Source of the DNA: a virus
Lineage: Duplodnaviria > Heunggongvirae > Uroviricota > Caudoviricetes
IMG/VR virus record: IMGVR_UViG_3300045988_039442
Location: 1-44,652 of that record
DNA: 44,652 bases
Direction: 5' to 3' (one strand)
Numbering within the stretch: position 1 is the first letter of the stretch; each line of letters opens with the position of its first letter. Under the pieces are notes generated by a model. The model was not told the DNA's origin and searched no databases. It worked only from the letters and a program-made list of their open reading frames with translations. This document shows, piece by piece, positions 1 to 44,652 of the stretch. The position numbers and the translations under genes are program-made.

Positions 1-55
1 AGTGACGTCTATGTGGTGCGCGCGTTTTGGGGGTTGGTATGAAATATATATATAT
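1..55. repeat. Terminal direct repeat, left copy (identical to 44598-44652)
   Basis: Exact 55-bp identity between the two window ends; 55 is a common assembler k-mer, so this may be a circularisation overlap. Confidence 0.9.
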
Positions 56-903: not shown

Positions 904-935
904 TTGCACACTAAAATAGAATAGGCTACTATTCA
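904..935 (+). promoter_or_regulatory. Copy of the conserved promoter/operator element, rightward orientation
   Basis: TTGCACACTAAAATAGAATAGGCTACTATTCA closely resembles the 44040-44071 element; sits upstream of the gene at 964. Confidence 0.45.
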
Positions 936-3821: not shown

Positions 3822-3843
3822 ATCTATTTTCTGCTATGACTAG

Positions 3844-3872
3844 TTGACTATTACTCTTACACCAATTATATT
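3844..3872 (+). promoter_or_regulatory. sigma70-type promoter
   Basis: TTGACT, 17-bp spacer, TATATT; about 35 bp upstream of the gene at 3906. Confidence 0.6.
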
Positions 3873-9285: not shown

Positions 9286-9317
9286 CGAAAAAGGCCCCGT
9301 TATGGGGCCTTAGTTTT
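9286..9317. terminator. bidirectional hairpin terminator between convergent portal and DpdA-like genes
   Basis: AAGGCCCC-GTTAT-GGGGCCTT with flanking A and T tracts. Confidence 0.65.
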
Positions 9318-10034
9318 AAGTAGCCATTCCTCTACTGTAGGGGGTTTAACCATCTCTATGGTATGCCTCATTATGGCAGTTCGATGCAGTTTGTCCGTTA
9401 TGTCAGGTAGTCTTGCCTTAGTTTTCGGCACATTTATAGCTACGTTTGTGCTGTCAGCGCTGTCGAAAGGGTAGCGGCTCAAGGCCCGCCCATCCAGCAT
9501 TCTAAGGCCGTGGAGTTTTACATCCAATTTCCTGTTTCTATAAACCGCATTAAATGCCTGGTCCATTCTTTTCCCCCATGACTTAGACCGTATGGCCCTG
9601 TGCGGTCCGCAGCAACCTATCGCTACCCGATTGAACCCACGGCACAGTTTTACCAGTCTTCTTATACTTTCATCGCTGTGCCACACCGGGACCGCCTTAG
9701 ACCTTAACCAATCGGGGACAGTTTCTATTAATGCGTCGTTCTCTTCCTCCGTGCCCTCTATAACGTCCGGTATTATGAACCACTCAATACGACTGAACCA
9801 CTCTCCGACAAAATCATAATATCCTGCCCAGTGGGCGCTCCAGTCTATGTTGTCCGGTGCTTTCTTCCACGTCGAAAAAGCTCCGTTGTCCAACACTAAT
9901 TTACATCTCGTGGCGGCTATCTTTCGTATTTGATCGGGGCGGGCGTATGATACCAGAGCACCACCACCTCGGTACAATGCTTCTATAAGCTCATCCCCAC
10001 CCCAAATAGGGCCTCCGTGGTAATGCACTGTCAT
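9300..10034 (-). CDS. tRNA-guanine transglycosylase/DpdA-like protein (candidate 7-deazaguanine DNA base-exchange enzyme)
   Basis: LVLDNGAFS segment resembles the TGT catalytic-Asp region (LTDSGGFQ) and HGLRMLD a second Asp region; no CxCxxC zinc motif seen; assigned from memory of the fold, not by search. Confidence 0.4.
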   Translation of the reverse strand: MTVHYHGGPIWGGDELIEALYRGGGALVSYARPDQIRKIAATRCKLVLDNGAFSTWKKAPDNIDWSAHWAGYYDFVGEWFSRIEWFIIPDVIEGTEEENDALIETVPDWLRSKAVPVWHSDESIRRLVKLCRGFNRVAIGCCGPHRAIRSKSWGKRMDQAFNAVYRNRKLDVKLHGLRMLDGRALSRYPFDSADSTNVAINVPKTKARLPDITDKLHRTAIMRHTIEMVKPPTVEEWLLKTKAP

Positions 10035-10495
10035 TTAATTTTCCTCAGCAAGAACGACCATAAAGCTCCGCCAAAAACCTTAGCCACGAATTGGCCCAGT
10101 ACGACTAGCGGCATGAAGGCCCCGAAAGCTATTAGTGGGAAAATAAAAGAGTCCACCGCCGAGGCCGCTGTATTACTTACGTTTGACTTAACCAACCACT
10201 TTTTATTGATCAGTGCCTGGTAGACAACGGCATCTATGGCGGCTGCAAAAGCGAAGGCAACAACGCTTGCCATAGCAATCTTGCCGGTTGCCGGGTTTAT
10301 GGAGAAACTTATAATGCCAGTTACTAGTATCAGTATGAATATTTTTTGTACACCAATCCTCTCGTGCAACTTATCTCTTATTACGAAATCAAGCCCAATA
10401 AGTAGAAAGGCGTTTACCGGTGTCGCCCACGGACCAAACACAGTTACCGAAAAGTTAGCGGCGCATATCGCCGCTACGTAAATTGCATACATCAT
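10031..10495 (-). CDS. small polytopic membrane protein, possibly YhhQ/COG1738-type queuosine-precursor transporter
   Basis: Four to five TM helices; stop overlaps the start of the downstream DpdA-like gene (ATGA); SNVSNTAASAVDSFIFPLIAF resembles a DUF165 motif as I recall it. Confidence 0.35.
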   Translation of the reverse strand: MMYAIYVAAICAANFSVTVFGPWATPVNAFLLIGLDFVIRDKLHERIGVQKIFILILVTGIISFSINPATGKIAMASVVAFAFAAAIDAVVYQALINKKWLVKSNVSNTAASAVDSFIFPLIAFGAFMPLVVLGQFVAKVFGGALWSFLLRKIK

Positions 10496-10499
10496 CTTA

Positions 10500-10658
10500 T
10501 CACCCCCAGTTACGGGCAGCGTTTGCGGCTAGTGCAATCGTTTCTTCAAAAATGTAGTCTAGTTTAACAATCTGGCGCATTTTACGGCGGAACTTACGTT
10601 TGTCTCCGTTTTTCGAACTTAAATTAGTATTTACGGTAATTCTTTTTGCTAATTTCAT
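10500..10658 (-). CDS. small basic protein (52 aa), first gene of the leftward operon
   Basis: ATG at 10658 preceded by AGGAGACG; the same leader is found at 12463 and 43623. Confidence 0.4.
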   Translation of the reverse strand: MKLAKRITVNTNLSSKNGDKRKFRRKMRQIVKLDYIFEETIALAANAARNWG

Positions 10659-10682: not shown

Positions 10683-10714
10683 TGAATAGTACCCTATTAT
10701 ATTGGTGTCTGCAA
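10683..10714 (-). promoter_or_regulatory. conserved promoter/operator element, copy 1, leftward
   Basis: TGAATAGTACCCTATTATATTGGTGTCTGCAA; minus strand reads TTGCAGAC ... TATAAT; contains the AATAG-N4-CTATT palindrome. Confidence 0.55.
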
Positions 10715-12263: not shown

Positions 12264-12290
12264 TAAAAGGCCCCGAAAGGGGCCTTAGCT
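12263..12290. terminator. bidirectional hairpin terminator
   Basis: AAGGCCCC-GAAA-GGGGCCTT. Confidence 0.6.
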
Positions 12291-12463
12291 TATACATCTC
12301 TACTCGCTAGATAATCGCAGCGGGCTATCGCTAAATATAAGCTAGCGTATGCGCTATCAGCTTTAGCATGGGTAAACCCAGAAATCATTACGTAGTACAC
12401 TCCTTTATCGTTTAGAACCCAGTATTTACCGTTTTCGTGCATTATGTCTTTTTCTTTGAACAT
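12290..12463 (-). CDS. hypothetical small protein (57 aa)
   Basis: ATG preceded by AGGAGA within the same conserved leader as at 10658; below the ORF-track cut-off. Confidence 0.4.
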   Translation of the reverse strand: MFKEKDIMHENGKYWVLNDKGVYYVMISGFTHAKADSAYASLYLAIARCDYLASRDV

Positions 12464-12487: not shown

Positions 12488-12519
12488 TGAATAGTACCCT
12501 ATTATATTGGTGTCTGCAA
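12488..12519 (-). promoter_or_regulatory. conserved promoter/operator element, copy 2, leftward
   Basis: Identical over 32 bp to 10683-10714. Confidence 0.55.
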
Positions 12520-12585
12520 ACTATTTATTTACCTATTCCGGTTATTCCACCCAATTGTAAATGTTGGAATAAACTATTCGAATAG

Positions 12586-12729
12586 TTGACTTTTCACTAA
12601 AAATGTGCTAAGCTCCACCTGAGCTTGTGAAGTATGAACAAGCGACCGCGGTGCGGCAGGAGAACGGAGCGGTGCGTTAGCACTGAGTGTAGTGTCGCTG
12701 CCCGCATTCGGAAGGGCCATACTCTATTG
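12586..12729 (+). ncRNA. conserved structured non-coding element, paralogue A
   Basis: About 80% identical to 43731-43873; own TTGACT-N17-TAAGCT promoter; indels not in multiples of 3; hairpins with compensatory changes. Confidence 0.45.
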
Positions 12730-19566: not shown

Positions 19567-19596
19567 AACTAAGGCCCCTTTCGGGGCCTTTTCTTA
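19566..19596. terminator. bidirectional hairpin terminator
   Basis: AAGGCCCC-TTTC-GGGGCCTT followed by TTCTT. Confidence 0.65.
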
Positions 19597-19759: not shown

Positions 19760-20329
19760 TCACGCATTTGGATAAATCCCCAGGATTCTATTAGCAATCG
19801 CAGCCGCTGTTAATGTAATCTCGCCTGGGATGACCACAACGTCATGGCATACCGCACCATCAATATCGTACAGGTAACCACGACTATCCCCGTCAAACGT
19901 ATAGCCGTCTCTGTGCAAGCGAACGATTCTTACATCATGCCCCGCGGCGACGATGGGGGCCACTTCACTGGCGAATCCACCGTCGGACACTACAAAAACT
20001 TCGTCGCCGTCGGACAAGTTTCCGGCAAGATACTTACCGAAATAATCGTCACCGAATACCGGTTTAATGAATTGCTCAGAAATGGCAATCATGAACTGAC
20101 GACGTGACAACCCATTAAGAAAACCCTCTGGCTTTTCTTTCCGCGCCCTGTCGTCGTAGCCGTCGAGAAACTCGTGGTAAGTATCCGGGCCTAACGCTGC
20201 AAGAGCGATATTGAACATTGGATTCTTGAAACTGGTAGTCGCATTCGCAAAGCCCATTTCTACCAGCGCCATAGCGAGTGTGTCTTTTCCGCAGCCCGCA
20301 GGACCATTAAGAATGATTACCTTAGCCAT
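19760..20329 (-). CDS. P-loop nucleotide kinase, dNMP-kinase-like (T4 gp1-like GKDT Walker A)
   Basis: N-terminal VIILNGPAGCGKDT; small (189 aa); last gene of the leftward operon. Confidence 0.5.
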   Translation of the reverse strand: MAKVIILNGPAGCGKDTLAMALVEMGFANATTSFKNPMFNIALAALGPDTYHEFLDGYDDRARKEKPEGFLNGLSRRQFMIAISEQFIKPVFGDDYFGKYLAGNLSDGDEVFVVSDGGFASEVAPIVAAGHDVRIVRLHRDGYTFDGDSRGYLYDIDGAVCHDVVVIPGEITLTAAAIANRILGIYPNA

Positions 20330-20814
20330 TATTTATTGCTCCCGTGTGGTTTTAAGTGAGTAGAGTTCCCGTTACAGTCGTATTCAGTAACCGCGTGCGT
20401 CGTGATTCCTAAGCCACGGAAATGCTTTATCACCGCTGGGGAGTCATCGAACGCACACAAGATTCTTTCCAGCCCGATAGCGCGCAACACCTCTTCTTTA
20501 ATTACGATGTCTTTTCTGTTGTCGTGTTTGCTGCGCATGATTAGCTGATAAAATTCGACGCGGTGGCGCTGCAACCACATTCTGGTTTCTTTTTCTGCGT
20601 CATCACTGCGACCGGTTAAAATAATAGCGGCGTATCGCCGATTAAGGGCGTTACACAGCTCGATATTATCTCTAATTGGTTCATCATCTTTGCACGCCAT
20701 GTTAAATGGCTTCCACGCCCATGTTTCGTTGTAGTTATCTTTCGGCAGAAGGTGCAAACGATGTGTCCCATCCGCCAATGTCCCGTCTAAATCGAAAATT
20801 ACAATATCTTTCAT
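20329..20814 (-). CDS. HAD-family phosphatase resembling the polynucleotide kinase 3'-phosphatase domain
   Basis: DLDGTL motif at the N-terminus; the RKDIVIKEEV ... FDDSPAVI segment resembles the T4 Pnk phosphatase domain from memory. Confidence 0.5.
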   Translation of the reverse strand: MKDIVIFDLDGTLADGTHRLHLLPKDNYNETWAWKPFNMACKDDEPIRDNIELCNALNRRYAAIILTGRSDDAEKETRMWLQRHRVEFYQLIMRSKHDNRKDIVIKEEVLRAIGLERILCAFDDSPAVIKHFRGLGITTHAVTEYDCNGNSTHLKPHGSNK

Positions 20815-21941
20815 CCCAACATCTCCGGTGAAATAGTTAAACGTGCAACCTCGCCGTATTCGGCGCTATAAGTAATTACATTTGCACTGCGTCCCGACAT
20901 CCACCCACCGCGAGAAGCATATGCATCTTTCGCCGCGAGAGTGCGATGCTGCTCAACAATCATGTTACGGCTTTCTACAATCTTCTGGTGGTGCAGGTGC
21001 CCAACGTGGGCGTAGCTATAAACGCTCTCGCCGAACGCTTTGCGGAACTTAGCAATCATAACCGGTTCGATAGCGTCAAATCGCGCCTTATGCCCGTGGT
21101 GAAAGAACAATGTCGTTTTGCCGTGTTGCACCATCTTGTAAACATCCGGCGATGTATCCACTGTCACTCGGCTGTCGTTTGAGTATAAAGTCGTGAACAT
21201 TTCCGCCAGCCATACAGACCCTACAGGGTCGTGATTTCCTTGCACGATAAGCAAGCGAACAGATTTATGCTTAACCAGTGCCATATCAACAACACGGCGA
21301 ACCATACGAATCATGTAGCGGACAAGTTTCTGGTAGCGAGTGTCTGCGTCCAACACATGACGCGACTCAGGGGTAACGGCATCAAGACTATCGAAGTGTG
21401 CGAAGTCCCCCAGCAGGTTAATAACCCCAGTTCCAGCATCTGGTGCTTTCTGAAACGCCGCATCGAACCAACGGGAGAACAAGTCTTCAGCAATCTTCAT
21501 ATCCCAGTCGTCGCCGCTCTCGTCGGCCCAGGCCAGCATACCGAGATGGAAATCAGATACAGTGTAAAGATTGAGTAGTTTATCGTCACGTTTGGTGCGA
21601 GCGGCTTTAACAGGTGCAACCGGCGTAATCTCCGACTTCATACCTTCGATTACGGCTTTCATTAATTCTACCTGACGTTCGGCATCGGTGTCGGTCTTAA
21701 CCCATTGCAACTTAGTATTGCCGAACTCGTCCACCAGAGACGACGTGCCTTTAATCTTGTAGCCGTCCGGAACAAGGTGGCTAACGTCCAGCCCGTGGCC
21801 TACGCCTTTCTTTGCCAGCTTCGCTTTACGGATTCTGATAACGCGGTCTGAGACGCCGTATTTACGAGCTATATCGATATTCCTCACACCGGCGTTCAAT
21901 TCTTCCTGTAACTGCTCGTCGGTTATTTTCTTCCGGGCCAT
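20811..21941 (-). CDS. calcineurin-like metallophosphoesterase with N-terminal HTH domain
   Basis: Motifs SDFHLG, GDFAHF, GNHD, HHGH and GHLHH; RBS ACGAGGAAG. Confidence 0.6.
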   Translation of the reverse strand: MARKKITDEQLQEELNAGVRNIDIARKYGVSDRVIRIRKAKLAKKGVGHGLDVSHLVPDGYKIKGTSSLVDEFGNTKLQWVKTDTDAERQVELMKAVIEGMKSEITPVAPVKAARTKRDDKLLNLYTVSDFHLGMLAWADESGDDWDMKIAEDLFSRWFDAAFQKAPDAGTGVINLLGDFAHFDSLDAVTPESRHVLDADTRYQKLVRYMIRMVRRVVDMALVKHKSVRLLIVQGNHDPVGSVWLAEMFTTLYSNDSRVTVDTSPDVYKMVQHGKTTLFFHHGHKARFDAIEPVMIAKFRKAFGESVYSYAHVGHLHHQKIVESRNMIVEQHRTLAAKDAYASRGGWMSGRSANVITYSAEYGEVARLTISPEMLG

Positions 21942-22006
21942 GCTTACTTCCTCGTGTTTAGGATTTGTCCTATTTAACCATAGTGCATTCCTTTAAATAA
22001 AGGCGA

Positions 22007-22333
22007 CTATTTACTTTCCGCGCCTATCGCCCACCCGGTCATTACCATTTGCAGACGGGTAGCCGTTAGTAGGCTGTAAAACGCGTCTCCGTTTTTCTCT
22101 ACCGAACGTATTACCGTGTATGTTACGGCTTGAGGAGGTAAGCCCGATTTACCAACCTCTACGGCAGCCTCACACTCGCCAACTGTAGAGTCCTTAAATG
22201 CCTTTACGATAGTAGTGTCGGCTTTCTCAAGCACGCCAGAAGTCATAAGAACAGATTCACTAAATACCTGTTCGCACGGGGACCCAAAAGTAGCAAAAGA
22301 CATAAACCCCAGAGCCAATACTAATTTACGCAT
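22007..22333 (-). CDS. small secreted/periplasmic protein with signal peptide
   Basis: N-terminal MRKLVLALGFMSFATFG signal-like segment; first gene after the conserved promoter. Confidence 0.5.
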   Translation of the reverse strand: MRKLVLALGFMSFATFGSPCEQVFSESVLMTSGVLEKADTTIVKAFKDSTVGECEAAVEVGKSGLPPQAVTYTVIRSVEKNGDAFYSLLTATRLQMVMTGWAIGAESK

Positions 22334-22358: not shown

Positions 22359-22390
22359 TGAATAGTACCCTATTATATTGGGGTGTGCAA
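22359..22390 (-). promoter_or_regulatory. conserved promoter/operator element, copy 3, leftward
   Basis: TGAATAGTACCCTATTATATTGGGGTGTGCAA; drives the four-gene leftward operon 22333 to 19760. Confidence 0.55.
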
Positions 22391-33130: not shown

Positions 33131-33806
33131 GATTAGCCTCGTAAACTGCTTTTGCGAAACCGCGCGGAGTAAGGCTGCGGATTGTTTTTGTTCTGGCGCT
33201 CTTTCCGCCGAGTTTAGCCCAACCAGGGTTATCTCCACTATCCGCGCTAACCACGGCAACGTCTGGCATAACAAACCCATTGCCCGTCCACAGGCACGTC
33301 TTTTTAACATACGCATCTCGCGCTGGAATAACATCCGGGAACATTGGATGTGCGTCGCCTTCCGGTAAATATCCACCGTATTCGTACGGATTGAACACGT
33401 AGTCTGGCTTACGCCATAGAGACGAAAGAACGCTAACAGGGTTTTCAATCATATAAGGTACGTTGTATTTTTTAGCCAGACGCGCCGCCACTTTGCATGT
33501 AATTACGGCCTCTACCTGAAAAGTTGGGTTATTCTTCCGCTTCGTTTCAAAATGCGCCGCACCGCTAACGGCTAAATCTGTGCACGGAGGGAACGCAAAA
33601 ATAATATCCGGCGCAACGCCGAAGTCGAATCTATTATCAATCCACGCGTTTATATAATGGATATTTTCATGTACAACTTTTGCACCCAATCGTGCGTAGT
33701 CGCCGTGGTTAGCGCCGTCGTAGTTGAAACAATAGCAAGTATGGCCTGCTTCCGCCCACGGTTGGGCCATAAGGCCCGAACCGTCAAACAAGGACCAGAC
33801 AATCAT
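33123..33806 (-). CDS. short DNA (cytosine-5)-methyltransferase-like protein
   Basis: Motif I LFDGSG, motif IV FPPC, motif VI ENPV, C-terminal GNG; only 227 aa, so the target-recognition region is minimal. Confidence 0.55.
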   Translation of the reverse strand: MIVWSLFDGSGLMAQPWAEAGHTCYCFNYDGANHGDYARLGAKVVHENIHYINAWIDNRFDFGVAPDIIFAFPPCTDLAVSGAAHFETKRKNNPTFQVEAVITCKVAARLAKKYNVPYMIENPVSVLSSLWRKPDYVFNPYEYGGYLPEGDAHPMFPDVIPARDAYVKKTCLWTGNGFVMPDVAVVSADSGDNPGWAKLGGKSARTKTIRSLTPRGFAKAVYEANHV

Positions 33807-33994
33807 TTCGCCACCAGAACTAACTCTTTACGCCCGAACGCCGTAACGTTACCGGTTACATCTTCGATAACCAGTTTACCGTTCGACTCGACGTACACCG
33901 TATCAACGGCGACAGGACGACGTGTCTTAACGTTGAAAATCATGTCACCCGGTACGATGTCACGTGCTGGTTTGCGGTCATATTCGTGTTTCAT
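33803..33994 (-). CDS. hypothetical protein
   Basis: ORF track entry; stop overlaps the methyltransferase start. Confidence 0.45.
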   Translation of the reverse strand: MKHEYDRKPARDIVPGDMIFNVKTRRPVAVDTVYVESNGKLVIEDVTGNVTAFGRKELVLVAK

Positions 33995-34307: not shown

Positions 34308-34604
34308 TTAGGGTATGTGTTTACTATAATAGTCCGCTATTAGGGTGTCAACCTGTTTAAACGAACCAACGACAAAAACATTCGCGCCGCGTTTACGCAT
34401 CCGCTCGTGCTCGCGTAGCTGGTGCGGGTCGGGCTTCGTGTTTTCGTCTTTCTTAACCTCGACGAACCAGATGATGCCGTCGGGGAGAATTACCAGCAGG
34501 TCGGGAGCACCGGAACGTCCTTCGTAGGAGAGCTTGCGAACGAGGCCCCCCAGGGCCTCGAACCTCTCTTTCGCGTATTTCTGCACGCGACCCTCTTTAG
34601 TCAT
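34308..34604 (-). CDS. VRR-NUC domain nuclease
   Basis: PDLLVILPDG ... WFVEVK is a PD-(D/E)XK core typical of VRR-NUC; ATG at 34604 within ORF 34308..34784. Confidence 0.6.
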   Translation of the reverse strand: MTKEGRVQKYAKERFEALGGLVRKLSYEGRSGAPDLLVILPDGIIWFVEVKKDENTKPDPHQLREHERMRKRGANVFVVGSFKQVDTLIADYYSKHIP

Positions 34605-37889: not shown

Positions 37890-37915
37890 GATTAGAAATA
37901 TAATAGCTAACTATT
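37890..37915 (+). promoter_or_regulatory. degenerate copy of the promoter/operator element (AATAG-N4-CTATT with TATAAT)
   Basis: AAATATAATAGCTAACTATTCAGG; nearly identical to the site at 40491-40516; orientation and function unclear. Confidence 0.35.
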
Positions 37916-37921
37916 CAGGTG

Positions 37922-38080
37922 TCAACGCTTAATTTTAGAAACTTTCTCACACCAATGAACATAGCGTTCTATGGGTTGACTACCTCTAAACTTACAATCT
38001 ATCCAAGCAATAGATGAAGTAAAAGCAGATATAACTACCAATGGTGATAATAAAGCCCAATACACGATTTTACGAATCAT
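37922..38080 (-). CDS. small membrane protein (52 aa)
   Basis: ATG at 38080 overlapping the exonuclease stop, within ORF 37922..38110. Confidence 0.4.
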   Translation of the reverse strand: MIRKIVYWALLSPLVVISAFTSSIAWIDCKFRGSQPIERYVHWCEKVSKIKR

Positions 38081-39962: not shown

Positions 39963-40463
39963 TTATTCTTCTTCGAAATACTTGTTCTTGATTGCCGTCA
40001 GGCGTTTCAGGTATTCAGCCAGGTCTTCGTCTTTAATCGCGGCAATCTTCATTTTCTTACCGGTGAACTCTTCCAGCAGTTCATCGGAGTCATCGCACGC
40101 GGCATCGCTCGGACCTTCGTTAATCGCATCGTCGATAGCCTGAATCTGGTCACGCAGAGACTGGTAATCAACTTCTTCCTTCTCTTCTTCCGGCTCCGGT
40201 GTTGGTTCCTCTACTTTAGCTTTCCGCGGCTTGCGTTTCGGCTTCTCTTCTTCTGCCGGTTTAGTGTCGACGATGTCTTCACCTTCAACCGGGATTTCTT
40301 TTGTTTCTTCTTCAGCGCACTCGGCTACCGCTTCTTTGGCATACGCTACCGTCTCTACTTCCAGCGGCGCGGAAACCTGAACAACTTGTTTCGCGCTGTT
40401 CGCAGCAATCAGTTCATGAGCAACTACGAAACGTTCCAGTAATGCTAAGAATTTCTCTAACAT
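39963..40463 (-). CDS. acidic hypothetical protein
   Basis: ORF track entry; Glu/Pro/Lys-rich central region. Confidence 0.5.
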   Translation of the reverse strand: MLEKFLALLERFVVAHELIAANSAKQVVQVSAPLEVETVAYAKEAVAECAEEETKEIPVEGEDIVDTKPAEEEKPKRKPRKAKVEEPTPEPEEEKEEVDYQSLRDQIQAIDDAINEGPSDAACDDSDELLEEFTGKKMKIAAIKDEDLAEYLKRLTAIKNKYFEEE

Positions 40464-40490: not shown

Positions 40491-40562
40491 GCTAACTATA
40501 ATAGCTAACTATTCACGATGTCAATGGGCTTTTCTAAAATAATTAATATGGTACTATTCACA
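40491..40562 (+). promoter_or_regulatory. promoter/operator region of the XRE regulator: two AATAG-like palindromic sites plus TATAAT
   Basis: TATAAT at 40497-40502 within CTAACTATAATAGCTAACTATTCACG; second site AATATGGTACTATTCAC at 40545-40561 sits between promoter and RBS. Confidence 0.45.
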
Positions 40563-40588: not shown

Positions 40589-40804
40589 ATGCAACCATCT
40601 GAACTAGGCATCCGTGTAGAACAACGCCGTAAAGAACTCGGCATCTCACAGCGCCGTCTGGCTGTTCTGGCCGGCGTTTCCCAGGGTGCGATTAACCAGC
40701 TTGCGCTCGGCGTAACTCAGGACGTCCGCCCGGCGACGCTGTTTAAACTGGCGGAAGTGCTGGAAGTAGACGCCAAGTGGCTGGCGTTCGGTGAAGGGGC
40801 TTAA
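40589..40804 (+). CDS. XRE-family (Cro/CI-type) helix-turn-helix transcriptional regulator
   Basis: LGISQRRLAVLAGVSQGAINQL HTH; RBS AAGGAG; only + strand gene inside the replication block. Confidence 0.7.
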   Translation: MQPSELGIRVEQRRKELGISQRRLAVLAGVSQGAINQLALGVTQDVRPATLFKLAEVLEVDAKWLAFGEGA

Positions 40805-43153: not shown

Positions 43154-43444
43154 TTATCTATTGGCCAGGCATTCCATCAAATGTGCGTACTTACGATAAT
43201 AATCTACGACAATCTCATCGCCGAAATACTGATAAACGTACGATAAGTGGTCAGAGACATCAATGGAGGCCGACATTGTGCTGAGTCTTCGGAGACTAAT
43301 CAACTGCAATTCTTCTGTAACGCAAAACGGCGAATAAGAGTCCAGCTTACAAGAAACGTTAAAACACAACGCGTACTTGCCTTGCACTAAATAGACCATA
43401 TAAGAATTGTCGTTCTCTTTATCATGGAATATTACACCTTTCAT
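43154..43444 (-). CDS. hypothetical protein
   Basis: ORF track entry; ATGA overlap with the upstream gene. Confidence 0.45.
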   Translation of the reverse strand: MKGVIFHDKENDNSYMVYLVQGKYALCFNVSCKLDSYSPFCVTEELQLISLRRLSTMSASIDVSDHLSYVYQYFGDEIVVDYYRKYAHLMECLANR

Positions 43445-43623
43445 TTCACGTTCTCCTTAATCCACGCTTCAACTTTATTACGGTCAAATGTACCCGGTAA
43501 ACGGCGGCCCATAACCTTAATACAGCAATCCGGGAATTTACCACTGCGCAACCAGTTATTAATTGTCTGACGGGTCACCCCGATACGTTCTGCTACTTCA
43601 TTCTGGGTCATGTAATGCTGCAT
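43441..43623 (-). CDS. small HTH DNA-binding protein (AlpA/excisionase-like HTH_17), first gene of the replication block
   Basis: MTQNEVAERIGVTRQTINNWL motif; ATG at 43623 preceded by the conserved AGGAGA leader. Confidence 0.55.
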   Translation of the reverse strand: MQHYMTQNEVAERIGVTRQTINNWLRSGKFPDCCIKVMGRRLPGTFDRNKVEAWIKENVK

Positions 43624-43730
43624 TTTTATATCTCCTGTTTGTTTGGTGAAGCTGAGTATAGGATAGCGGGAATGTAAAAGCAACCAAAACGCCACACAAA
43701 GTTACTAAGATACAAAAGATGCTACTGGTA

Positions 43731-43873
43731 TTGACTTTTACTTAAAAATATGCTAAGCTTCACTGAGCTTGTGAGATATCGCAAGCGACCGCGGAGCGGC
43801 AGGGAACGCAACGCGTGCCATTAGGCACTTGAGTGTAGTTCCGCTGGCGCTTTCGGAAGGGCCAAAGTCTATT
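43731..43873 (+). ncRNA. conserved structured non-coding element, paralogue B
   Basis: About 80% identical to 12586-12729, including the TTGACT-N17-TAAGCT promoter. Confidence 0.45.
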
Positions 43874-44039: not shown

Positions 44040-44071
44040 TTGCACACCCCAATATAATAGGATACTATTCA
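44040..44071 (+). promoter_or_regulatory. conserved promoter/operator element, rightward copy driving the early block
   Basis: TTGCACACCCCAATATAATAGGATACTATTCA is the reverse complement of the 22359-22390 element; about 30 bp upstream of the RBS at 44091. Confidence 0.55.
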
Positions 44072-44597: not shown

Positions 44598-44652
44598 AGT
44601 GACGTCTATGTGGTGCGCGCGTTTTGGGGGTTGGTATGAAATATATATATAT
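44598..44652. repeat. Terminal direct repeat, right copy (identical to 1-55)
   Basis: Exact match to the window start; the window ends inside the repeat. Confidence 0.9.

What the first reader, a model, noticed from the sequence alone, without database searches (positions are those of the whole stretch)
10683..10714. Family of near-identical 32-bp promoter/operator elements at the head of every accessory and early transcription unit
Four copies are nearly identical over about 32 bp (10683-10714, 12488-12519, 22359-22390 oriented leftward; 44040-44071 rightward), and 904-935 is a looser rightward copy. Consensus read in the transcribed direction is TTGCA(G/C)AC(A/C)CCAATATAATAGG(G/A)TACTATTCA: a perfect TATAAT -10 fused to the palindrome AATAG-N4-CTATT, with TTGCAC/TTGCAG only 8 bp upstream of the -10 instead of at the usual -35 spacing. 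This pattern suggests either a phage-specific promoter class or a sigma70 promoter overlapped by a dimeric repressor operator, co-regulating the early genes and all three leftward accessory operons.
Basis: seen in the sequence. Interest (0 to 1): 0.65.

Follow-up and report, generated by a model that had tools for sequence, protein, structure and literature searches.

The report
Host-type promoters carrying a Cro-like operator
The repeated 32-bp element is an ordinary host-RNA-polymerase promoter with a 14-bp palindromic binding site built into it, most likely for the phage's own small Cro-like regulator; this is a classical kind of phage gene switch, here spread over about ten promoters of a virulent E. 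coli phage.

Summary
In detail: four 32-bp copies match the consensus exactly, plus a looser fifth (0 expected by chance). The window is a complete Kagunavirus (Guernseyvirinae) genome. All five copies read TTGCA(C/G)-N17-TACTAT, which is canonical sigma-70 spacing. The "TATAAT" lies in the spacer and varies in relatives (CATAAT, TAGAAT).

The real common denominator is the 14-bp dyad AATAG-N4-CTATT. It has 8 exact and 3 one-mismatch copies (0.025 exact expected), all at promoters. These include three leftward TTGACA-N17/18-TATAGT or TATATT replication-gene promoters, where the dyad sits inverted in the spacer, and the XRE gene's own promoter.

The arms are nearly invariant across 45 Kagunavirus/Jerseyvirus loci, while the centre and the rest of the spacer vary. 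Cornellvirus carries a different dyad (TATTA-N6-TAATA) at orthologous promoters, has a divergent XRE and has no HTH_17 protein. The XRE protein's closest solved relative is phage 434 Cro.

Best reading: a Cro-like repressor regulon on host-type promoters. The motif was already published as PHIRE "phage-RNA-polymerase promoters", but no polymerase gene exists. No binding or transcription-start data exist. This is a new member of a known kind, of moderate interest.

The parts
44040..44071 (+). Class A promoter/operator heading the rightward early small-gene cluster. -35 TTGCAC 44040-44045, dyad AATAGGATACTATT 44056-44069, -10 TACTAT 44063-44068.
   Evidence: orthologues in 40+ loci
904..935 (+). 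Class A promoter/operator, the looser copy. -35 TTGCAC 904-909, dyad AATAGGCTACTATT 920-933, -10 TACTAT 927-932. The 'TATAAT' is TAGAAT here.
10683..10714 (-). Class A promoter/operator of a leftward accessory unit. The unit holds a 52-aa ORF, a Vut_1/YhhQ-like transporter (10031-10495) and a queuine-tRNA-ribosyltransferase-like protein (9300-10034). -35 10709-10714, -10 10686-10691, dyad 10685-10698.
12488..12519 (-). Class A promoter/operator of a one-gene leftward unit (57-aa ORF 12290-12463, followed by a terminator). The leader is a near-duplicate of that of the 10683 copy.
22359..22390 (-). Class A promoter/operator of a leftward unit at 22333 to 19760. The unit holds a 108-aa ORF, a DNA repair exonuclease, a PNKP-type phosphatase and an AAA_18 kinase-like protein.
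40495..40524 (-). Class B leftward promoter (PL-like) for the operon starting at 40463. TTGACA 40519-40524, 18-bp spacer, TATAGT 40495-40500. The dyad 40500-40513 lies in the spacer, inverted relative to class A.
37897..37925 (-). Class B leftward promoter for the Gp2.5-like SSB and DNA polymerase genes. TTGACA 37920-37925, 17-bp spacer, TATATT 37897-37902, dyad 37902-37915.
34323..34351 (-). Class B leftward promoter inside the 3' end of the VRR-NUC-like ORF. TTGACA 34346-34351, 17-bp spacer, TATAGT 34323-34328, dyad 34328-34341.
40545..40560 (+). The XRE gene's own promoter. It is an extended -10 TGgTACTAT (40549-40557) overlapped by a one-mismatch dyad AATATGGTACTATT, a putative autoregulatory site.
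40589..40804 (+). 71-aa HTH_3 (XRE) protein, 434-Cro-like. It is the proposed dyad-binding regulator.
   Evidence: phyletic and covariation data
3839..3872 (+). Rightward TTGACT-N17-TATATT promoter after a strong terminator, ahead of small ORFs and then the terminase/structural genes. A one-mismatch dyad ACTAGTTGACTATT overlaps the -35. It is conserved in all three genera.
12581..12614 (+). One-mismatch dyad AATAGTTGACTTTT overlapping the -35 of the TTGACT-N17-TAAGCT promoter of a structured non-coding RNA.
43441..43623 (-). 60-aa HTH_17 protein, the rival candidate binder. It is the first gene of a leftward operon whose promoter (43655-43683) lacks the dyad.

Best explanation
Each 32-bp element is a promoter for the host sigma-70 RNA polymerase: -35 TTGCA(C/G), a 17-bp spacer and -10 TACTAT. 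Transcription is predicted to start about 7 nt downstream of the -10, giving a leader of 20-30 nt to a Shine-Dalgarno sequence.

A 14-bp dyad operator, AATAG-N4-CTATT, is embedded in the promoter. Its right arm forms part of the -10. The same operator is built in the opposite orientation into the spacer and -10 of three strong leftward replication-gene promoters, and into the promoter of the XRE gene itself.

The most likely ligand is a dimer of the phage's 71-aa 434-Cro-like XRE protein (40589-40804). Bound over the spacer and -10, it would exclude RNA polymerase. That would turn down early, replication and accessory ('moron') transcription, and its own synthesis, as infection proceeds. This would be a Cro-only switch in a virulent phage.

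Shown here: the sequence architecture, the statistics, the conservation pattern, covariation across three genera, and homology to 434 Cro. Inferred: sigma-70 usage, transcription start positions, the identity of the binding protein, and the sign of regulation.
For: 1. Canonical geometry. TTGCA(C/G)-N17-TACTAT is present in all 5 copies. The class B sites read TTGACA-N17/18-TATAGT or TATATT. Genes with a Shine-Dalgarno sequence follow within 20-35 nt.

2. Unbiased census. AATAG is the top 5-N4-5 palindrome arm in the window and in 6 relatives. There are 8 exact copies against 0.025 expected. All 11 copies with at most one mismatch lie at promoters, whereas two-mismatch copies scatter through coding sequence.

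3. Position-specific conservation. Over 230 Kagunavirus and 62 Jerseyvirus sites, the arms carry about 2 bits. The central N4 and the remaining spacer vary. This is not expected for a plain sigma-70 spacer.

4. Both orientations. The dyad occurs in both orientations and in different registers relative to -35/-10 (classes A and B). That fits a symmetric protein site and not an asymmetric polymerase promoter.

5. Covariation across genera. Cornellvirus has a different dyad, TATTA-N6-TAATA, with 3 exact and 6 one-mismatch copies against 0.02 and 1.0 expected. It has zero exact copies in Kagunavirus or Jerseyvirus genomes. It sits at orthologous promoters, and its -10 changes with the arm to TAATAT. 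Cornellvirus keeps a divergent XRE (43% identity) but has no HTH_17 protein.

6. HTH_17 is dispensable. Kagunavirus locus L033 has lost the HTH_17 gene yet keeps 6 exact dyads.

7. Homology to 434 Cro. The XRE protein's best solved relative is phage 434 Cro, also 71 aa, in a full-length match at E = 5e-7. 434 Cro binds 14-bp dyad operators as a dimer (established knowledge). The Gln residues aligned to 434 repressor Gln28 and Gln33 are kept, and Gln29 is replaced.

8. Host factor unlikely. Jerseyvirus and Cornellvirus both infect Salmonella but have different dyads.

9. No phage polymerase. No RNA polymerase or sigma gene was found.
Against: There are no transcription-start or binding data for any member of this subfamily. 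The only RNA-seq study (PMC12645636) is coarse and maps no 5' ends.

TTGCAC/TACTAT match the sigma-70 consensus at only 7 of 12 positions, so the simple consensus scan did not call them.

The XRE recognition helix differs between Kagunavirus (SQGAINQ) and Jerseyvirus (SQSLITH) although both use AATAG arms. Jerseyvirus and Cornellvirus helices look more alike (TQSAISH) although their dyads differ. The protein-DNA covariation is therefore not simple.

The phyletic pattern of the HTH_17 protein (Kagunavirus and Jerseyvirus only) matches the AATAG dyad.

In Kagunavirus the site is consistently asymmetric (TATAATAG...CTATTCA), which a homodimer does not require.

Repression rather than activation is inferred from position alone.
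Confidence: 0.6

Rival explanations
1. The same promoters and the same operator, but the ligand is the 60-aa HTH_17 (excisionase/MerR-like) early protein (43441-43623). It is made from a dyad-less promoter and then represses or modulates the dyad-bearing promoters.
For: The HTH_17 protein is found in Kagunavirus and Jerseyvirus (80-100% identity between the genera) and is absent from Cornellvirus. That is the same distribution as the AATAG dyad. Its own promoter lacks the dyad. Its orthologue is classed as an 'early' gene in K1B4 RNA-seq (the orthology is inferred from gene size and order).
Against: L033 has replaced the gene yet keeps 6 exact dyads. The protein varies from 69% to 100% identity within Kagunavirus with no change in the dyad. 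Cornellvirus has an orthologous dyad system without this protein. Short HTH_17 proteins have no obvious dimerisation module for a 14-bp dyad (general knowledge; not tested here).
Confidence: 0.15
2. The elements are a phage-specific promoter class read by a phage-encoded RNA polymerase or sigma factor. This is how they are annotated for phage fBC-Eco01 (PHIRE 'phage promoters').
For: It is a highly conserved motif of about 20 bp, repeated 7-11 times per genome and found by PHIRE (PMC9825357; PMC7203180). The class A -35 and -10 are non-consensus.
Against: No RNA polymerase or sigma gene is present in the window or in annotated relatives. The motif is a dyad used in both orientations relative to the transcribed gene. 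Every site has sigma-70-like hexamers at 17-18 bp, and three of them are near-consensus TTGACA/TATAGT.
Confidence: 0.04
3. The -10 is TATAAT, or both -10 elements are used. Transcription would then start inside the dyad, and TTGCAC would be something other than a -35.
For: TATAAT is a perfect consensus in four window copies. Its A at -11 and T at -7 are kept in all variants.
Against: There is no -35 and no TG motif at the right distance from TATAAT. Its first and third bases vary in relatives (CATAAT, TAGAAT), whereas TACTAT is almost invariant. The XRE promoter shares TACTATTCA but has ATTAAT at the corresponding place. The Cornellvirus orthologues read TTGCAA or TTGACA, then N17, then TAATAT, with no second -10.
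Confidence: 0.12
4. The dyad is a binding site for a host (E. coli/Salmonella) transcription factor that the phage exploits.
For: The dyad is conserved between phages of E. coli and phages of Salmonella.
Against: Jerseyvirus and Cornellvirus both infect Salmonella enterica but carry different dyads at orthologous promoters. I know of no enterobacterial regulator with this consensus (from memory; not tested).
Confidence: 0.04

Closest known systems
Phage 434 (and lambda/P22) Cro-operator system
   Same: A small (71-aa) HTH_3 protein whose best solved relative is 434 Cro. 14-bp dyad operators overlap the core elements of sigma-70 early promoters. The leftward promoter (40495-40524) and the regulator's own rightward promoter (40545-40560) are divergent and lie in one intergenic region. 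A site sits on the regulator's own promoter.
   Different: No CI repressor, integrase or lysogeny module is present, and the phage group is described as virulent. The operators are single sites dispersed over about ten promoters around the genome, including accessory units among the late genes, rather than tripartite OL/OR clusters. The half-site is AATAG rather than ACAA. Binding is untested.
PHIRE-predicted 'phage promoters' of Kagunavirus genome papers (fBC-Eco01, consensus tgAATAGTa-ccTATTat-T; vB_EcoS-Golestan)
   Same: It is the same motif, since the published consensus is the reverse complement of the core here, with the same number of copies per genome.
   Different: Those papers assign the sites to a phage-encoded RNA polymerase that the genome does not encode. 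They did not note the dyad symmetry, the sigma-70 hexamers, the two orientations or the link to the XRE protein.
Moron promoter-gene-terminator cassettes of lambdoid phages
   Same: The three leftward accessory units each have their own promoter and end at a GGCCCC-type hairpin terminator, inserted among rightward late genes.
   Different: Here the moron promoters carry the same operator as the early promoters. They are therefore wired into the phage's own regulatory circuit rather than being autonomous.

Membership tests
Sigma-70 (housekeeping) bacterial promoter | -35-like and -10-like hexamers separated by 17 +/- 1 bp | tested here: met
   TTGCA(C/G)-N17-TACTAT occurs in 5 of 5 class A copies. 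TTGACA-N17/18-TATAGT or TATATT occurs in the 3 class B copies, and TGgTACTAT (extended -10) at the XRE promoter. Class A matches only 7 of 12 consensus positions.
Sigma-70 (housekeeping) bacterial promoter | Transcription start 6-8 nt downstream of the -10, dependent on host RNA polymerase | not testable with these tools
   No 5'-end data exist. PMC12645636 reports only gene-level RNA-seq.
434/lambda-type Cro-operator system | Small HTH_3 protein homologous to Cro/CI DNA-binding domains | tested here: met
   Pfam HTH_3, E = 2e-12. The best PDB hit is 434 Cro, in a full-length match at E = 5e-7.
434/lambda-type Cro-operator system | Dyad-symmetric operators of about 14-17 bp overlapping early promoters, including the regulator's own | tested here: met
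   The 14-bp dyad has 8 exact and 3 near copies, all overlapping the -35, spacer or -10 of a promoter, including 40545 in front of the XRE gene.
434/lambda-type Cro-operator system | Operator sequence co-varies with the regulator between related phages (immunity specificity) | tested here: inconclusive
   Cornellvirus has a divergent XRE and a different dyad at orthologous sites. However, Kagunavirus and Jerseyvirus share the arms despite 50% XRE identity and different recognition helices.
434/lambda-type Cro-operator system | Partner CI repressor and lysogeny module; tripartite OL/OR operators | tested here: not met
   No second repressor or integrase is annotated in this genome or its relatives. 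The sites are single and dispersed.
434/lambda-type Cro-operator system | Demonstrated specific binding and repression | not testable with these tools
   This needs EMSA or footprinting and reporter assays.
Phage-RNA-polymerase-specific promoters (T7/N4-like) | Phage-encoded RNA polymerase gene | tested here: not met
   None is present in the window or in annotated relatives.
Phage-RNA-polymerase-specific promoters (T7/N4-like) | Asymmetric motif in a fixed orientation relative to the transcribed gene | tested here: not met
   The core is a dyad and is inverted between class A and class B promoters.
MerR-type activator sites | Dyad located in an over-long (19-20 bp) spacer | tested here: not met
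   The spacers are 17-18 bp.

The most novel reading that the evidence does not exclude
Guernseyvirinae, which are virulent phages, run their early-to-late programme with a 'Cro-only' circuit. One 71-aa 434-Cro-like protein autoregulates and shuts off about ten dispersed host-type promoters, covering early genes, replication genes and every accessory 'moron' unit. The operator arm doubles as part of the -10 hexamer, so operator specificity and -10 sequence co-evolve: TACTAT with CTATT arms in Kagunavirus/Jerseyvirus, and TAATAT with TAATA arms in Cornellvirus.
Probability: 0.45. Interest if true: 0.5.

Novelty: new member of a known kind. Interest (0 to 1): 0.38.

Why it matters
Kagunaviruses and Jerseyviruses are widely isolated for phage therapy and food biocontrol, and more than 400 genomes are deposited. 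Their regulatory sites are currently annotated as promoters for a phage RNA polymerase that these phages do not have.

Recognising them as host-type promoters under a Cro-like operator gives a testable map of the transcription units. It explains how the accessory genes (a putative queuosine-precursor/7-deazaguanine-related pair and a DNA/RNA end-repair-like set) are tied to the phage's own timing. It also offers a compact, portable repressor-operator pair with natural specificity variants. Conceptually it is an extension of textbook Cro/operator biology, not a new principle.

Tried and rejected
- Rfam at gathering threshold on the whole window and a tRNA scan found nothing relevant to the element.
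- The simple sigma-70 consensus scan did not call the class A promoters, because TTGCAC scores 3 of 6. It therefore could not be used as support.
- Literature searches for the 14-mer strings found no paper. Searches for Jerseyvirus/Jersey-like promoters found nothing beyond the fBC-Eco01 paper.
- A home-made PHIRE-like all-against-all 18-mer search timed out. It was replaced by the repeat finder and targeted dyad scans.
- HTH_17 as the binder looked attractive from its phyletic pattern. It was downgraded after L033 and the Cornellvirus dyad.
- I considered whether class A elements are bidirectional promoters using the TATATT on the opposite strand. The -35 positions are not conserved: 2 of 6 matches at 10683 and 12488, and 4 of 6 at 22359 and 44040. 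I rejected this as a general property.
- An RNA-level role for the palindrome is rejected. In class B the dyad lies upstream of the start site, and the arms are only 5 bp.
- The K1B4 RNA-seq paper and its supplements gave only gene-level early/middle/late classes.

Full report
**What the window is.** The 44,652-bp window is a complete, circularly assembled genome; bases 1-55 repeat at 44598-44652. It belongs to a Kagunavirus-like siphophage of the subfamily Guernseyvirinae and is about 88-90% identical to many E. coli phages. Neither the window nor the annotated relatives fBC-Eco01 and FSL SP-031 encode an RNA polymerase or sigma factor.

**Check of the observation.** The 904-935 copy is looser but keeps the key blocks. 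The 10683 and 12488 copies are also nearly identical through the 5' leader to the ATG. Part of the identity thus reflects a duplicated promoter-leader cassette.

**Promoter anatomy.** In all five copies, however, TTGCA(C/G) is followed after exactly 17 bp by TACTAT, which is canonical sigma-70 geometry.
- Across 125 orthologous and paralogous Kagunavirus sites, TACTAT is almost invariant. The "TATAAT" appears as CATAAT or TAGAAT in many copies.
- The XRE gene's own promoter shares TACTATTCA, preceded by TGg (an extended -10). It has ATTAAT where the others have TATAAT.
- I therefore read TACTAT as the -10. TTGCAC/TACTAT match only 7 of 12 consensus positions, so the simple scan did not call them. 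No 5'-end data exist, so this reading remains an inference.

**The common denominator is a dyad, and the family is larger than reported.**
- A search with the 3' half found further copies at 37902, 40500 and 40545.
- An unbiased census of all 5-N4-5 palindromes put AATAG-N4-CTATT first in the window, with 8 exact copies. It was also first in four other Kagunaviruses (6-8 copies) and two Jerseyviruses (5 copies, as TAATAG-N4-CTATTA).
- Markov simulations expect 0.025 exact copies and 0.98 copies with at most one mismatch, against 8 and 11 observed.
- All 11 lie on promoters. Two-mismatch copies scatter through coding sequence, as chance predicts.
- At 34328, 37902 and 40500 the dyad lies, inverted relative to the 32-bp family, in the spacer and -10 of leftward near-consensus promoters TTGACA-N17/18-TATAGT or TATATT. 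These drive the replication genes.
- One-mismatch copies overlap the -35 of a rightward promoter at 3844-3872 and of a non-coding-RNA promoter at 12586-12614.
- The promoter of the HTH_17/primase operon (TTGCTT-N17-TATACT, 43655-43683) has no dyad.

**Conservation pattern.**
- Over 230 Kagunavirus and 62 Jerseyvirus sites from 45 loci, the two arms carry about 2 bits per position. That is equal to or more than the -35 hexamers.
- The central four bases and the rest of the spacer vary.
- A conserved arm in the middle of a sigma-70 spacer, together with use of the same core in both orientations, points to a symmetric protein-binding site. It does not fit a polymerase recognition sequence.

**Who binds the dyad?** Two HTH proteins are encoded nearby. 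One is a 71-aa HTH_3/XRE protein (40589-40804). The other is a 60-aa HTH_17 protein (43441-43623).
- At first the phyletic pattern favoured HTH_17. It is present in Kagunavirus and Jerseyvirus and absent in Cornellvirus, as is the AATAG dyad.
- First contrary result: Kagunavirus locus L033 has the HTH_17 cassette replaced by unrelated genes yet keeps six exact dyads.
- Second contrary result: Cornellvirus FSL SP-031 has no HTH_17 and an XRE only 43% identical, but it has its own dyad, TATTA-N6-TAATA.
  - It has 3 exact and 6 one-mismatch copies, against 0.02 and 1.0 expected, and zero exact copies in Kagunavirus or Jerseyvirus genomes.
  - It sits at promoters orthologous to the window's 37902 site (same register relative to the -35), 44040, 904, 3839 and the moron sites.
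  - Its -10 changes with the arm to TAATAT.
- The system therefore exists in all three genera, with a specificity change that tracks the only HTH protein common to all three.
- The XRE protein's best solved relative is phage 434 Cro, also 71 aa, in a full-length match at E = 5e-7, followed by the 434 repressor DNA-binding domain. From established knowledge, 434 Cro binds 14-bp dyad operators as a dimer. The Gln residues aligned to 434 repressor Gln28 and Gln33 are kept, while Gln29 is Gly.
- Caveat: the Kagunavirus and Jerseyvirus XRE helices differ (SQGAINQ versus SQSLITH) although their arms are the same. The Jerseyvirus and Cornellvirus helices are more alike although their dyads differ. 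The covariation is suggestive but not clean.

**Mechanism proposed.** Host polymerase fires these promoters on entry. XRE is made from its own extended -10 promoter, accumulates, and binds the dyads that overlap the spacer and -10. This would turn down early, replication and accessory transcription as well as its own synthesis. Repression is inferred from site position: the spacers are 17-18 bp, which is not the MerR-type geometry. A host factor is unlikely, because Jerseyvirus and Cornellvirus share the host Salmonella but differ in dyad.

**Relation to what is known.**
- The motif itself is published. The fBC-Eco01 paper lists seven PHIRE "phage promoters" with consensus tgAATAGTa-ccTATTat-T, said to be used by a phage-encoded RNA polymerase (PMC9825357). 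The GenBank record annotates them accordingly. The Golestan paper also lists seven (PMC7203180).
- Neither paper notes the dyad, the sigma-70 hexamers or the XRE link, and no polymerase gene is annotated.
- The only transcriptome paper (PMC12645636) gives gene-level classes. The HTH_17 orthologue is "early" and the XRE orthologue "middle"; these orthologies are inferred from gene size and order.
- The finding is thus a re-interpretation that places these sites in the classical Cro/operator category. It differs in having no CI or lysogeny module, and single operators dispersed over about ten promoters.

**Verdict.**
- Sigma-70 promoter: about 0.85.
- Operator for a phage-encoded protein: about 0.8.
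- XRE as the ligand: about 0.6.
- Repression: about 0.65.

Noticed in passing
window 12586-12728 (+) and 43731-43872 (+): Two copies of a structured non-coding RNA candidate of about 108 nt (TGAGCTTGTG...TCTATT). Each lies 5-9 nt downstream of a TTGACT-N17-(TG)cTAAGCT extended -10 promoter. Homologues occur in many Kagunavirus loci (19 sequence variants). RNAalifold gives 25 pairs, 5 of them with compensatory double changes. There is no Rfam match at gathering threshold or at E <= 1. fBC-Eco01 annotates a 38-aa CDS over one copy, which is probably wrong. The function is unknown.
   Followed up: partly
window 1-55 and 44598-44652: An identical 55-bp terminal overlap, so the window is a circularly closed or permuted assembly of a whole phage genome.
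   Followed up: yes
window 9300-10658 (-): The accessory unit behind the 10683 promoter encodes a PHROG 'queuine tRNA-ribosyltransferase'-like protein (E = 3e-84) and a Vut_1/YhhQ-like transporter. This pairing suggests a 7-deazaguanine (queuosine-precursor) related function, possibly DNA modification.
   Followed up: no
window 19760-22333 (-): The accessory unit behind the 22359 promoter encodes a DNA repair exonuclease (phrog_704), a PNKP-type HAD phosphatase and an AAA_18 kinase-like protein. This looks like an end-healing/repair set. It is absent from Cornellvirus.
   Followed up: no
L033 12559-13144 (IMGVR_UViG_3300045988_014597): In this Kagunavirus the HTH_17 + 96-aa gene pair is replaced by a 47-aa CxxC...CxxC protein and a 149-aa protein with no Pfam match. 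This is a natural cassette swap at the head of the primase operon.
   Followed up: partly
window 9291-9311, 12267-12286, 19571-19590: Near-identical AAGGCCCC-loop-GGGGCCTT hairpins score as terminators, two of them on both strands, and close each leftward accessory unit. Each such unit is therefore bracketed by an operator-bearing promoter and this hairpin terminator. The same hairpin family is the only repeated element found in Cornellvirus.
   Followed up: partly
window 33803-33994 (-): A 63-aa ORF of unknown function is 94-100% identical across Kagunavirus and Jerseyvirus, far more conserved than its neighbours. It is absent from Cornellvirus and has no Pfam match.
   Followed up: partly
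L001 (OM272052.1) regulatory features: The fBC-Eco01 record labels hairpins as 'Rho-dependent terminator predicted by ARNold' and labels the dyad sites as promoters of a phage polymerase. Both labels are questionable and are likely to propagate.
   Followed up: no
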